Assembly: GCA_964016885.1 (NCBI GenBank)
Contig: OZ024740.1
Location: forward strand, 402,380,001-402,444,000
Length of the DNA: 64,000 bases
Reading direction: 5' to 3'
DNA from: Eledone cirrhosa
Lineage: Eukaryota
Shown here piece by piece: positions 4,768 through 22,428 of this stretch; within the stretch, counting starts at the first letter, position 1; every line of letters starts with the position of its first letter. The translations under genes were made by a program, and so were the position numbers. The notes below the pieces were generated by a model that was not told the origin of the DNA, did no database searches, and worked only from the letters and a program-made list of their open reading frames with translations.

Positions 4768-5289
4768 ATATAAGTATGTATACGTACATACATATATGTA
4801 TACAGACGTACAGTAGTATGTGTATATATATATATATACATACATGCACACATATATATATATGTGTAGGTATGAATTCACCGAACATTTATTATAATGC
4901 TCGGTGTGTTTGTAAACAAACATCCCGAATTAAGCCGTACAGTGTCTAGCAAATATGCAAATTAGGCTGCTCAGCCGTTAATATGCATAAGAAAAGTATA
5001 TACTTTCAGACGTTCAATCATCTGGCAAGAAGGTATACTTTGCTGACGATAGCTAATAAGCTTGAAACTAGTACAGCGTTCCTTTGTCAGTGTTGAACAA
5101 ATGAGCAACGATGGTTGCTAGACACTGTACGGCTTAATTCGTGATGTTTGTTTACAAACACACCGAGCATTATAATAAATGTTCGGTGAATCCATACGTG
5201 CATATATATATGTGTGCATGTATGTATATATATATACATACTACTGTACGTCTGTATGCATATATGTATGTACGTATACATACTTATAT
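4768..5289. repeat. Foldback inverted repeat, arms 4768-4952 / 5115-5289, spacer ~160 bp
   Basis: Arms are near-perfect reverse complements (e.g. TTCACCGAACATTTATTATAATGCTCGGTGTGTTTGTAAACAAACATC vs GATGTTTGTTTACAAACACACCGAGCATTATAATAAATGTTCGGTGAA). Confidence 0.95.
5038..5078 (+). ncRNA. Minimal type I hammerhead-like motif (Penelope-type variant)
   Basis: CTGACGA (5043-49), helix II AGCT-aata-AGCT with a T.T closing mismatch, GAAA (5064-67), palindromic helix III ACTAGT, triplet GTA. Helix I is only ~3 bp (TTG/CAG). Confidence 0.55.
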
Positions 5290-5441
5290 TTAAGTAACAG
5301 CCGTACTAAGAGTTAGAAATGAAACTTCGTTTCATCTTTTCCCTTTATATATATATATATATATAATTGGTGTGGGATGCTTAAAGCGACTGTATGCGGT
5401 AGGCCGTTTGTGCACTCGATCCTTTTATAAAGCAGAGTATA

Positions 5442-5639
5442 ATATCACATAAGAAACGGAGAATCAGTGGTGCGACGAATAAAATTGGGAACTCTGCTTC
5501 GAAGAATCGAGACGTAACTGAGGACCTTGCGATTTCAGAGTCAGGTTCGATCATTTGATTGACCGTGCCTCGAACGATTGTAATATGTCTAATACATTTT
5601 ATTCGTCGCACCACTTATTCTCCGTTTCGTATGTGATAT
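5442..5639. repeat. Inverted repeat, arms 5442-5485 / 5596-5639
   Basis: ATATCACATAAGAAACGGAGAATCAGTGGTGCGACGAATAAAAT vs ATTTTATTCGTCGCACCACTTATTCTCCGTTTCGTATGTGATAT (2 mismatches); abuts (TA)n. Confidence 0.92.
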
Positions 5640-5796
5640 ATATATATATATATATATATATATATATATATATATATATATATATATATATATATATATA
5701 TATATATATATATATCATTCTCGTCTCGGGAACAATTTTGAATAGCGCCAGTTCGTAATTTGAACTCGGGAATTTTATATTCTCCGAGTGAAAAGA

Positions 5797-5883
5797 ACCT
5801 TCTGACGAGAGTTTATCTTTAAAATGGAAGGCCGCAAGGACTGTCCATTTATTTTTGAGACGCGAAACCGATTCGGTAAAGGT
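5797..5883 (+). ncRNA. Type I hammerhead ribozyme, copy 1
   Basis: Helix I ACCTT/AAGGT, CTGACGA, extended helix II (GAGTTT/AGACGC with one mismatch; AAATGGA/TCCATTT; CC-GCAA-GG), GAAA, helix III ACCG-att-CGGT, triplet GTA. Predicted cut after 5878. Confidence 0.85.
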
Positions 5884-6282
5884 AACCATAGTGAGTACAG
5901 TGAATTTTTTGAAATTTATTTTGAAACTTTTTCTTATTTGCTAAACCTTGATTATATATGTTCTGGCTCGTTAATTTATTAACTAGCCATTGAACCACAT
6001 TGGCATATGGTTGGACAATACATGTGTCTCTGGACGCTTTTTGCGTGTAGGGATATATACTTTATTATTATTATACTCCTCTTGGTCGAGATAAAATTTG
6101 GTCGTTTTGACTGCTGCTATTTATAGTGGTAGTAGACTGACCTCCCTGCCTCTGCTTCTATCTTGACACACGGCACTGGAGAGAATTGCTTCCACATCAT
6201 TCATTCTCATCTCAGGAACAATTTTGAATAGCACCAGTTCGTAATTTGAACTCGGGAATTGTATATTCTCCGAGTGAAAAGA

Positions 6283-6369
6283 ACCTTCTGACGAGAGTTT
6301 ATCTTTAAAATGGAAGGCCGCAAGGACTGTCCATTTATTTTTGAGACTCGAAACCGATTCGGTAAAGGT
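6283..6369 (+). ncRNA. Type I hammerhead ribozyme, copy 2
   Basis: As copy 1 but helix II base fully paired (GAGTTT/AGACTC) with a G10.1-C11.1 pair. Predicted cut after 6364. Confidence 0.9.
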
Positions 6370-6520
6370 AACCATAGTGAGTACAGTGAATTTTTTGAAA
6401 TTTATTTTGAAACTTTTTCTTATTTGCTAAACCTTGAGTATATATATATATGTGTGTGTGTGTTTATCGGAGGTAACCACAGTAAGTAAGGTACTCAATA
6501 CATAGCTGAGTATAAATATT

Positions 6521-6639
6521 TAATAGAGAAATGGCTTCTACAGGACTAGAACTGTTTCATTCGGGAGAAATCATCGGGCTTCCTGATGATTTCTCCCGAA
6601 TGAAACTGTTCTAGTCCTGTAGAAGCCATTTCTTTATTA
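6521..6639. repeat. Near-perfect ~119-bp palindrome containing hammerhead cores on both strands
   Basis: AGAAATGGCTTCTACAGGACTAGAAC.GTTTCATTCGGGAGAAATCATC and its reverse complement, with a 3-nt loop near 6580. Confidence 0.95.
6577..6627 (+). ncRNA. Type I hammerhead-like motif, helix I interrupted
   Basis: CTGATGA (6583-89), helix II TTC-tccc-GAA with T.T closing, GAAA, helix III ACTG-ttc-TAGT, triplet GTC. GGCTTC can pair with GAAGCC, but the proximal 5 nt (CTGTA) lack partners. Confidence 0.55.
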
Positions 6640-7007
6640 TTATTATAATATATATATATATATATATATATATATATATATATATATATATATATATATA
6701 TATATATATATATATATATATATATGTGTGTGTGTGTGTGTGTGTGTGTATGCAGAGTACCTGCAGCCGTCTGGTCTACCAAATATCCCCATAAGGTATT
6801 TATAAACCAGGACTTATGGTATAGAGATTCCTAGCTATGATAACACAAATATACATATATCTAATTCGAAAGTTTAAATTATGTTACAGGATATGTTAGA
6901 GGTATGTACATGTATCAGGGAGCATGGAACTTCATATCGAAATGTTTAAACGGAAAAAAAAGGGAATATACACACACACACACACATATATATATATATA
7001 TATAATA

Positions 7008-7112
7008 GCCACACTTTGAGAGAATATGTAGTCGATTAAATTGTCCATATTACTTGACTTTCTTATCTCGGCCTCGGAGGGTTAGAAGGCAAAATTGACC
7101 GGCAATGTATTG
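7008..7112 (-). mobile_element. Highly degraded SINE fragment
   Basis: GTCGATTAAAT...GAAGGCAAAATTGACC remnants of the family. Confidence 0.5.
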
Positions 7113-7294
7113 ATAGAGTGTGATCAACAAAAATGTATAGAGAAAAAAAATTAATGTATTTTTAATATGGACGACTATAACATACAAGAAAATCCATGAG
7201 TAAGAAAAATGTGGTTGAATCCCCATTTTTTTAATTGCACTAAGTATATCCAATCAGTTGTTGTATGTTGAACTCCTAAAGATGAAATAATAAT

Positions 7295-20343: not shown

Positions 20344-20504
20344 TTTTTTTTATGTAATAACTTCATTTGATGTAATAACTCCATGACGACCTGCATGGGT
20401 TCTGGTTGTAAAACGTTGAGACGTAGAGACAATTGACGGCCAACCCATTAAATACAATTCTGCAGAGCTGAAGTATCCCGAATTGGATGAATAAGGTGAG
20501 AATA

Positions 20505-20712
20505 ACTGTGATCATCATTATCATGATTATCACTTTGACCCGCAGTGTTGATGATTAATGCATCGGATTATTTAGTCATCTGTCAAGTCACAATAAAGAT
20601 CTCCGACAGATAACACTTTCGTTAAAGTGTGTGCACTACCAAGCAAGACTGATTTTTATATGACACCAATCTTGCATTGTAATCCAAACAGCTTTAAGAA
20701 GTCTTGATGTTT
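20505..20712 (-). mobile_element. RLE-type LINE 3' end (second family)
   Basis: Minus strand translates LKLFGLQCKIGVI*KSVLLGSAHTLTKVLSV (IQK..LLG.AH.LRK.L terminal motif), followed by a (GAT/AAT)n tail. Confidence 0.65.
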
Positions 20713-20714
20713 CT

Positions 20715-21062
20715 ATCTCAATTTTATTGCATGTTGTTACTACATTACCGAGCATAACTGTGTGCCTGAGTATGTGCTGTGTTGATTTTGGTGTTGTTAT
20801 ATCTATTGTAATGAGATGGTTCTTCGTAATATATGTACAGTGCCTACTAGTGCTATTTCCAATACGCTGCGTGCATCTGTAAATCTTGGGGTTTTGGTAT
20901 TGTTTCTCTGTGTGTGTTTTTATCATAAGGATTGTTTCTGTTTTCATCAACCACACTCGACTTATTTCTATCTCCAGATCTTTATATTTGGGTCCCATTC
21001 CTTATTTAAATCACAATGCATACAACGATGTTACAGAAATATGTTTTGTTTAATGAAAGCAA
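20715..21062 (-). mobile_element. RLE-type LINE 3' end with 3' UTR
   Basis: KYKDLEIEISRVWLMKTETI, then frameshifted IALVGTVHILRRTISL, the restriction-like endonuclease C-terminus. Confidence 0.75.
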
Positions 21063-21316
21063 GGTAAATAAAATAGAATAACAGAATTTCAGTATCAATC
21101 AAAATATAGATTAATTATGATATTTTCGACTCACCAGAAATACTTTCAATTATTTAGGAAGATACTGAAATTAAAATTTGACATTAATAATGTAATAACG
21201 TTAAATGTGACCGGTACATAGGTTCAACAGAAAATCCAAATCGTGATGCGGACGCAGGCTTCAATTGATTACTATCATTATCTCTCTCTAGAAATTTCTC
21301 TCTGTATCTTTCTCTG

Positions 21317-21745
21317 TACACACACACACACACACACACACACACACACACACACACACACATAACTACACAGTCACCCACACACACATACATACACAGT
21401 CACCCACTCGTAGTCCACACACAAATAGCCATTAACATATACACTTATAAATATATGGGTGAATATATTTATAAGAGCGACGTCGTCTTCTCCCTCATTC
21501 TGTCATACACACGCTCACACACACACACACACACACACACACACACACACACACACACACACACACACACACACACAGACACACACACACACACACACAC
21601 ACACGCACACACACACACACACACACACACACACACACACACACACACACACATACATACATACATACATACATACATACATACATACATACATACATAC
21701 ATACATACATACATACATACATACATACATATATATATATATATA
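21317..21745. repeat. (CA)n/(TACA)n/(TA)n arrays
   Basis: Directly visible. Confidence 0.93.
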
Positions 21746-21761
21746 TTTATTAATTTAATAT

Positions 21762-21811
21762 AGAAATGGCTTCTACAGGACTAGAAATGTTTCATTCGGG
21801 AGAAATCATCA
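21762..21811 (-). repeat. Solo, truncated copy of the 6521-6639 hammerhead-bearing arm
   Basis: AGAAATGGCTTCTACAGGACTAGAAaTGTTTCATTCGGGAGAAATCATC, 1 mismatch versus 6527-6575, embedded in (TA)n. Confidence 0.9.
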
Positions 21812-21961
21812 TATATATATTTATATATCTATATCCACAATTAAGATAAATCAAAATGAATTTAATCTAAATCAAAATTATGGGTGTCATGCCAGAAAGG
21901 CATGCGCCATATCACCCGTAAAATAAGCTCCAAGATTCTATGAATAGGTCCGAGCATTTTA

Positions 21962-22222
21962 TAACAACTAGAAATTGATTAACATATAAATAAACATATG
22001 AAACAATCACAGGGGATAATTTTTACAAGTGTGTAAGCACTATATTTCTTTAATGGAATATATACAGGGAAAATTAATCATATTATAAGGTATCTATTTC
22101 TGAAGTTCTAGTTAACTTTATTTAGTTACCTACCTAGCTATGTGTGCTTACACACTTGTAAAAATTATCCCCTGTGATTGTTTCATATGTTTATTTATAT
22201 GTTAATCAATTTCTAGTTGTTA
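21962..22222. repeat. Foldback inverted repeat, arms 21962-22040 / 22144-22222
   Basis: 79-bp arms appear perfectly complementary; 103-bp spacer; abuts (TA)n. Confidence 0.95.
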
Positions 22223-22361
22223 CATATATATATATATATATATATATATATATATATATATATATATGTAGGAGGTGAGTTTTATTGTAGTACAATATGT
22301 ATGTTGATTTAAAACTGAACTATCCACAAGTGTTTTTTAACCTTCATATCATGTCTTCCTG

Positions 22362-22428
22362 TTTTATCTGATGAAAACACAAATATTATTGCATGATGAT
22401 ATTTGTTTTTGAAATGCGCATAATAAAA
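22362..22428 (+). ncRNA. Type I hammerhead ribozyme
   Basis: TTTTAT-CTGATGA-AAAcACAAATATTAT-tgcatg-ATGATATTTGTtTTT-GAAA-TGCGCA-TA-ATAAAA. Helix I is 6 bp, helix II 14 bp, helix III is the palindrome ATGCGCAT, and the triplet is ATA. Predicted cut after 22422. Confidence 0.82.

What the first reader, a model, noticed from the sequence alone, without database searches (positions are those of the whole stretch)
4768..22428. Dense assortment of unrelated hammerhead families inserted in (TA)n and tied to foldbacks
Seen: within ~18 kb there are at least six sequence-unrelated hammerhead types (5038, 5797/6283, 6577/21762, 11272/11336, 14371, 22362) plus decayed candidates. Most sit in short inserts in or beside (TA)n arrays, and three lie inside inverted repeats. 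A GIY-YIG PLE relic lies at 11490-12285. Inference: a large, diverse population of non-autonomous ribozyme-bearing retroelements mobilised by PLE RT/endonuclease with TA-repeat preference, likely under-annotated in this lineage. PLE hammerheads as a class are known; the families and their density here may not be.
Basis: partly seen in the sequence, partly recalled or inferred. Interest (0 to 1): 0.8.

Follow-up and report, generated by a model that had tools for sequence, protein, structure and literature searches.

The report
Hammerhead-ribozyme transposon fragments fill animal genome
Six unrelated hammerhead-shaped RNA motifs in this window are pieces of Penelope-type jumping genes and of small non-coding repeats that likely ride on them, inserted at TA microsatellites, and sampling suggests this 3-Gb animal genome holds roughly 200,000 such motifs, whose self-cleavage is untested.

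Summary
Window 1-24,388 has ten type I hammerhead remnants in seven insertions from six unrelated families. Four pass a strict descriptor, against 0.017 in shuffles; Rfam's models did not list them. Each family is multi-copy, and helices covary in the two families tested. The reading needs one correction. Families D, E and F are 5'-truncated 3' ends of protein-coding Penelope-like elements (D and F Hydra-type, E probably Neptune-type). Only A, B and C are non-coding, circularly permuted retrozymes (172-511 nt units). The foldbacks are the known head-to-head inverted 5'-truncated arms. The 3' ends run past the cleavage site and stop at internal TA-like motifs joined to (TA)n. The window is only about three times richer than average: 79 sampled 10-kb stretches give 57 strict motifs and none in shuffles, about 216,000 genome-wide (95% 137,000-315,000). 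That exceeds every count in the papers I read, though the descriptors differ. The GIY-YIG relic is weakly supported. No RNA data were available. Verdict: new families of a known kind, at unusual scale.

The parts
4765..5346 (+). Family A retrozyme insertion: inverted arm 4765-4952 (-) joined head-to-head to 4953-5346 (+); minimal type I hammerhead, box at 5043, predicted cleavage after 5073, U-U at 10.1/11.1, palindromic stem III; TA at both ends
   Evidence: tandem arrays of 415-511 nt elsewhere; 899 first-look candidates
5716..6435 (+). Family B retrozyme, about 1.5 units of a 486-nt monomer; hammerheads at 5802 (stem II mismatch) and 6288 (intact), predicted cleavage after 5878 and 6364; flanked by (TA)n
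   Evidence: 1636 candidates
6439..6639 (.). Family C retrozyme foldback: left arm (-) 5'-truncated inside the CUGAUGA box, right arm (+) with box at 6583 and a stem III mismatch; unit about 172 nt
11155..11434 (.). Family D foldback: 3' end of a Hydra-type PLE; intact hammerhead at 11326 (-), predicted cleavage after 11278; damaged copy at 11342 (+)
11855..12004 (-). Decayed GIY-YIG-like relic (weak match to a Hydra-type profile built from this genome); not linked to any window hammerhead
14284..14513 (-). Family E: 3' end of a probable Neptune-type PLE; minimal hammerhead at 14404 with a damaged core (GAAU); ends in CA/TA repeats
21753..21811 (-). Second family C fragment, 5'-truncated inside the CUGAUGA box, between TA tracts
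22266..22473 (+). Family F: 3' end of a young Hydra-type PLE; hammerhead at 22368, predicted cleavage after 22422; short inverted tail 22266-22297 (-); (TA)n at both ends

Best explanation
The seven insertions are fragments of Penelope-like retroelements (D, E, F) and of non-coding retrozyme repeats (A, B, C), which were likely copied into (TA)n microsatellites by the reverse transcriptase and GIY-YIG endonuclease of Penelope-like elements. Shown from DNA: the hammerheads, their parent elements, the TA-joined 3' ends, variable 5' truncation and head-to-head inverted arms. Inferred: the endonuclease nicks a TA array; the nicked end primes on an internal UA-rich site downstream of the ribozyme cleavage site (a few bases of microhomology); reverse transcription runs back through an uncut or re-ligated cleavage junction, so the template is a multimer or a circle; a second, inverted cDNA gives the foldback. 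Inferred: the hammerheads process tandem transcripts into unit RNAs, as dimers where stem III is a short palindrome. Each insertion keeps TA at its ends, so later insertions pile up nearby and make local clusters such as this one.
For: Parents: F lies in sense about 0.7-1.2 kb downstream of one GIY-YIG in 28 of 30 loci. L302 holds an 809-aa open frame with DKT, YRDD, CxCX5C, CxxC and CxH motifs, and L305 shows F upstream and downstream of the ORF (3,555 nt apart) plus an inverted copy. D is colinear with a CxCX5C GIY-YIG in two loci on different chromosomes, 87-91% alike. E-type motifs lie 386-543 nt downstream of a GIY-YIG in three loci. A, B and C occur as tandem or more-than-unit permuted copies, and none of their 90 loci shows a family-linked ORF. 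Natural A and B monomers fold as circles with z -3.6 to -10.3. An inverted same-family copy lies upstream in 76 of 180 loci and downstream in 4 of 180. In loci not chosen for the family, 99 of 102 copies reach the cleavage site and 90 of the 99 keep more than 5 nt of homology beyond it; the examples printed among the other 9 look like divergent subfamilies. At 83 junctions ending directly in (TA)4, mean microhomology is 4.1 nt against 1.1 expected. Covariation: family A 0 of 500 shuffles on all five measures; family C 1 of 500 on the covariation score. Literature: PMC8557442 (inverted 5'-truncated copies, Hydra motifs, TA targets), PMC7229834 (retrozyme circles), PMC11167929 (internal initiation).
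Against: No RNA data and no cleavage assay. In PMC11167929 hammerhead cleavage was not needed for insertion in vitro, and initiation was at a site not homologous to the target. In bioRxiv 10.64898/2026.07.22.740005 only 1 of 9 Xenopus retrozyme dimers cleaved. Pfam found nothing in the 809-aa F protein and only E=0.21 for the E-linked GIY-YIG, so clade labels rest on motifs; no tree was built. The microhomology test covers B, C and F only (A gave 0 usable junctions of 47 copies), the 83 junctions fall on only 15 positions, and 113 of 196 B/C/F copies were not scored. No sequence link between A, B or C and a specific PLE was found. Family E shows no inverted arms (0 of 30). Families D and F show almost no double-sided base changes.
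Confidence: 0.8

Rival explanations
1. Same elements, but the ribozymes are bystanders: the template is the unprocessed tandem transcript, with no circle and no cleavage needed.
For: Copies run through the cleavage site; in vitro results of PMC11167929; six of ten window copies are damaged.
Against: Core boxes and helices are kept across 35 sequence clusters, with compensatory changes between subfamilies, and monomers are strongly self-paired as circles. This points to selection on the RNA fold. DNA alone cannot separate circle from multimer.
Confidence: 0.35
2. TA association and junction microhomology arise after insertion, through microsatellite growth from internal TA seeds or deletion between TA tracts, not through targeted priming.
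For: TA arrays cover 4.8% of sampled DNA; A, B and C carry internal TA tracts; junctions use few positions.
Against: The youngest copies (95-100% alike) share the same ends. The association is directional (37 of 41 downstream, 18 of 41 upstream). F ends at +136 have only 2 nt of overlap yet join (TA)n. Hydra-clade elements are reported to insert in (TA)n.
Confidence: 0.15
3. A, B and C are themselves 3' ends or pseudo-LTRs of ORF-bearing PLEs whose coding parts I did not sample.
For: Only 30 loci with 1.5-kb flanks per family were examined, out of 899-1636 candidates; D and E parents turned up only in a few loci; Li et al. 2026 derive retrozymes from pseudo-LTRs.
Against: The sequence upstream of the hammerhead is the same unit again (arrays of 7 or more in L115 and L212), so the unit closes without an ORF.
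Confidence: 0.12
4. Chance motifs or assembly artefacts.
For: AT-rich, repeat-rich DNA; Rfam silent; weak folding z-scores.
Against: 0 hits in five shuffles of 790 kb against 57 observed; inverted arms differ by 2-10%; the B and C sequences are deeply covered in an independent short-read contig set.
Confidence: 0.01

Closest known systems
Metazoan non-LTR retrozymes (Cervera and de la Pena 2020, PMC7229834; Li et al. 2026, bioRxiv 10.64898/2026.07.22.740005)
   Same: A, B, C: non-coding units of 172-511 nt, GC 35-37% (measured for A and B), one type I hammerhead per unit, monomers to arrays, self-paired predicted circles, co-occurring PLEs.
   Different: New sequences. Most copies sampled here are dispersed, truncated and in head-to-head foldbacks inside (TA)n. 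A and C have U-U at 10.1/11.1 (a known natural variant, PMC3088659). Expression and cleavage untested.
Hydra-clade PLEs (Craig et al. 2021, PMC8557442)
   Same: F parent: C-terminal GIY-YIG, DKT, CxCX5C, CxxC and CxH motifs, hammerhead in the pseudo-LTR, TA targets, inverted 5'-truncated copies. D parent shares the CxCX5C, CxxC and CxH motifs.
   Different: RW followed by I rather than K; unit about 3.6 kb against 'generally <3 kb'; long 3' regions (about 0.9 kb in F, 1.7 kb in D); very large expansion (62,309 first-look candidates, 150 scored at 92% identity or more), where the paper lists a small number of families outside cnidarians.
Minimal hammerheads of PLEs (Cervera and de la Pena 2014, PMC4209133)
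   Same: Palindromic stem III, many unrelated families per genome, dispersed single motifs, opposite-strand pairs 100-700 bp apart.
   Different: Estimated number far higher (about 2,000 in Schistosoma, 9,000 in Xenopus there); G10.1-C11.1 is rare here (4 of 57).
Poseidon element of Anolis (Frangieh et al. 2024, PMC11167929)
   Same: 3' ends downstream of the hammerhead at discrete internal sites; AT-rich targets.
   Different: There initiation is in an AC-rich stem-loop with no target homology; here most scored junctions overlap a TA-like motif by 3-7 nt.

Membership tests
Type I hammerhead ribozyme | Core CUGANGA, GAAA and NUH in type I order | tested here: met
   4 strict window copies; every family has intact copies elsewhere (10-27 of 30 loci per family)
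Type I hammerhead ribozyme | Helices I and II supported by compensatory change | tested here: met
   A: 6 pairs with double changes, 0 of 500 shuffles. C: 18 cells, 0 of 500, but pair-count measures not above shuffles. D and F too uniform to tell. Relatedness can inflate these tests.
Type I hammerhead ribozyme | Helix III, or a palindrome allowing a dimer | tested here: met
   A, E, F palindromic; B, C, D 2-4 bp helices; 42 of 57 background hits palindromic
Type I hammerhead ribozyme | Watson-Crick 10.1-11.1 pair (usually G-C) | tested here: inconclusive
   Paired in B and F; U-U in A and C; C-A in D. U-U is a reported natural variant; C-A was not checked against data.
Type I hammerhead ribozyme | Self-cleavage | not testable with these tools
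   no assay; no RNA run
Non-LTR retrozyme (A, B, C) | Tandem or permuted units of a few hundred bp with one hammerhead each | tested here: met
   A 415-511 nt, B 486 nt, C 172 nt
Non-LTR retrozyme (A, B, C) | No protein coding, GC under 50% | tested here: met
   GC 0.35-0.37 for A and B monomers (C not measured); no family-linked ORF in 90 loci
Non-LTR retrozyme (A, B, C) | Stable self-paired circle predicted | tested here: met
   z -3.6 (B), -4.5 and -10.3 (A) against 30 shuffles each; C not folded
Non-LTR retrozyme (A, B, C) | Expressed as circular RNA | not testable with these tools
   no RNA holder listed
Non-LTR retrozyme (D, E, F) | No coding parent | tested here: not met
   each is colinear with a GIY-YIG ORF
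Hydra-clade PLE (F parent) | Single ORF, RT then C-terminal GIY-YIG, with DKT, CxCX5C, CxxC and CxH | tested here: met
   read directly in the L302 frame against the motif list; Pfam silent
Hydra-clade PLE (F parent) | RWK motif; length generally under 3 kb | tested here: inconclusive
   RWI; 3,555-nt unit
Hydra-clade PLE (F parent) | Hammerhead in pseudo-LTR; (TA)n targets | tested here: met
   L305; 29 of 30 loci with (TA)5 downstream
Hydra-clade PLE (D and F parents) | Placement in the clade by RT phylogeny | not tested
   no reference proteins at hand
Neptune-clade PLE (E parent) | C-terminal GIY-YIG of the CCHH type followed by a minimal hammerhead | tested here: inconclusive
   tblastn E 1.6e-9 to RT+GIY-YIG proteins of this genome, Pfam E=0.21; RT part not seen; the label Neptune is recalled

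The most novel reading that the evidence does not exclude
This genome carries the largest hammerhead population reported for an animal (about 70 strict motifs per Mb, 35 or more families), driven by a huge recent Hydra-clade expansion. Its retrozymes are circular RNAs that carry their own UA tracts as built-in priming adapters, letting a Penelope-type enzyme copy them into (TA)n by microhomology-primed internal initiation, unlike the homology-free initiation shown for Poseidon.
Probability: 0.35. Interest if true: 0.72.

Novelty: new member of a known kind. Interest (0 to 1): 0.52.

Why it matters
Which enzyme moves animal retrozymes, and whether the template is a ribozyme-made circle, are open questions in the papers read. 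This genome offers thousands of young copies with readable junctions, an apparently intact Hydra-type ORF, and non-coding passengers with the same insertion anatomy, so both questions become testable in vitro. It also shows a blind spot: Rfam models listed none of these motifs, a giant squid annotation lists 235 Rfam hammerheads, and a 2026 octopus repeat annotation does not mention ribozymes. If even a small part is active, read-through transcripts and introns in this animal would meet self-cleaving RNA every 10-20 kb.

Tried and rejected
Rfam scan: only microsatellite-driven miRNA-like hits among the rows shown. The repeat finder was swamped by microsatellites. Single-sequence folding did not separate the candidates from shuffles. 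A family-based density test gave 7 against 1.08 expected (P=1e-4); I set it aside as circular because the families were defined from this window, and report the descriptor test instead. The end-mapping was confounded by multimer references for A and B and by queries that included downstream sequence; it was redone with upstream-only queries and a junction walker, which failed for A. The first HMM run printed nothing and was repeated. The relic has no DNA relative, no tblastn hit at E<1e-3 and no informative tblastx hit, so I did not link it to family D. GIY-YIG pieces near B (L029), D (L077) and C (L265) were treated as neighbours because TA tracts or other DNA intervene and no second independent locus is colinear. 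No RNA holder was listed; runs X1-X3 (one sample) cover unique DNA evenly and look genomic; their summed depths were not used as copy numbers. Lunse et al. 2017 (recalled) was not held. Two look-ups of earlier scan findings returned nothing. The walk upstream of D gave places but no DNA, so the D parent rests on two loci.
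Full report
Setting. The window is C1:402,380,001-402,444,000 of a 3.0-Gb genome. Positions 24,389-64,000 are a 36-bp satellite, so the informative part is 24.4 kb of AT-rich DNA full of TA and CA microsatellites.

Noticed in passing
window 24389-64000: 36-bp satellite, about 1,079 copies, 90% matches, with extreme strand skew; one + frame stays open for 13,207 codons, probably because the strand is T-poor, while the unit's phase shifts between frames.
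   Followed up: partly
window 21962-22222: Perfect 79-bp inverted arms, a foldback family seen in six other held loci (one pair overlapping), no hammerhead found near it; resembles the same head-to-head anatomy.
   Followed up: partly
window 5442-5639 and 10740-10862: Further short inverted repeats beside TA arrays with 4-5 relatives in held loci; the CUGAGGA at 5518 has no GAAA partner.
   Followed up: partly
window 10853-10893 and 11424-11466: 41-bp inverted pair enclosing the D foldback and its microsatellites, suggesting nesting in an older foldback.
   Followed up: no
window 3993-4363, 7310-7475, 8369-8552, 8939-9119, 14510-14612, 19974-20300: Copies of a very abundant SINE-like repeat of about 180 bp; it also interrupts the D-parent 3' region in L309.
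   Followed up: no
L210 6165-7907: Another retrozyme family, 311-nt unit, in a head-to-head array of five plus two units.
   Followed up: partly
L251-L270: Several PLE families with long open RT+GIY-YIG frames (up to 1,096 aa); one has its own minimal hammerhead about 380-420 nt downstream, and L256 and L264 are ORF-length foldbacks.
   Followed up: partly
background hits: U-U at hammerhead position 10.1/11.1 is the commonest state (22 of 57) and G-C is rare (4 of 57), the reverse of the usual consensus.
   Followed up: partly
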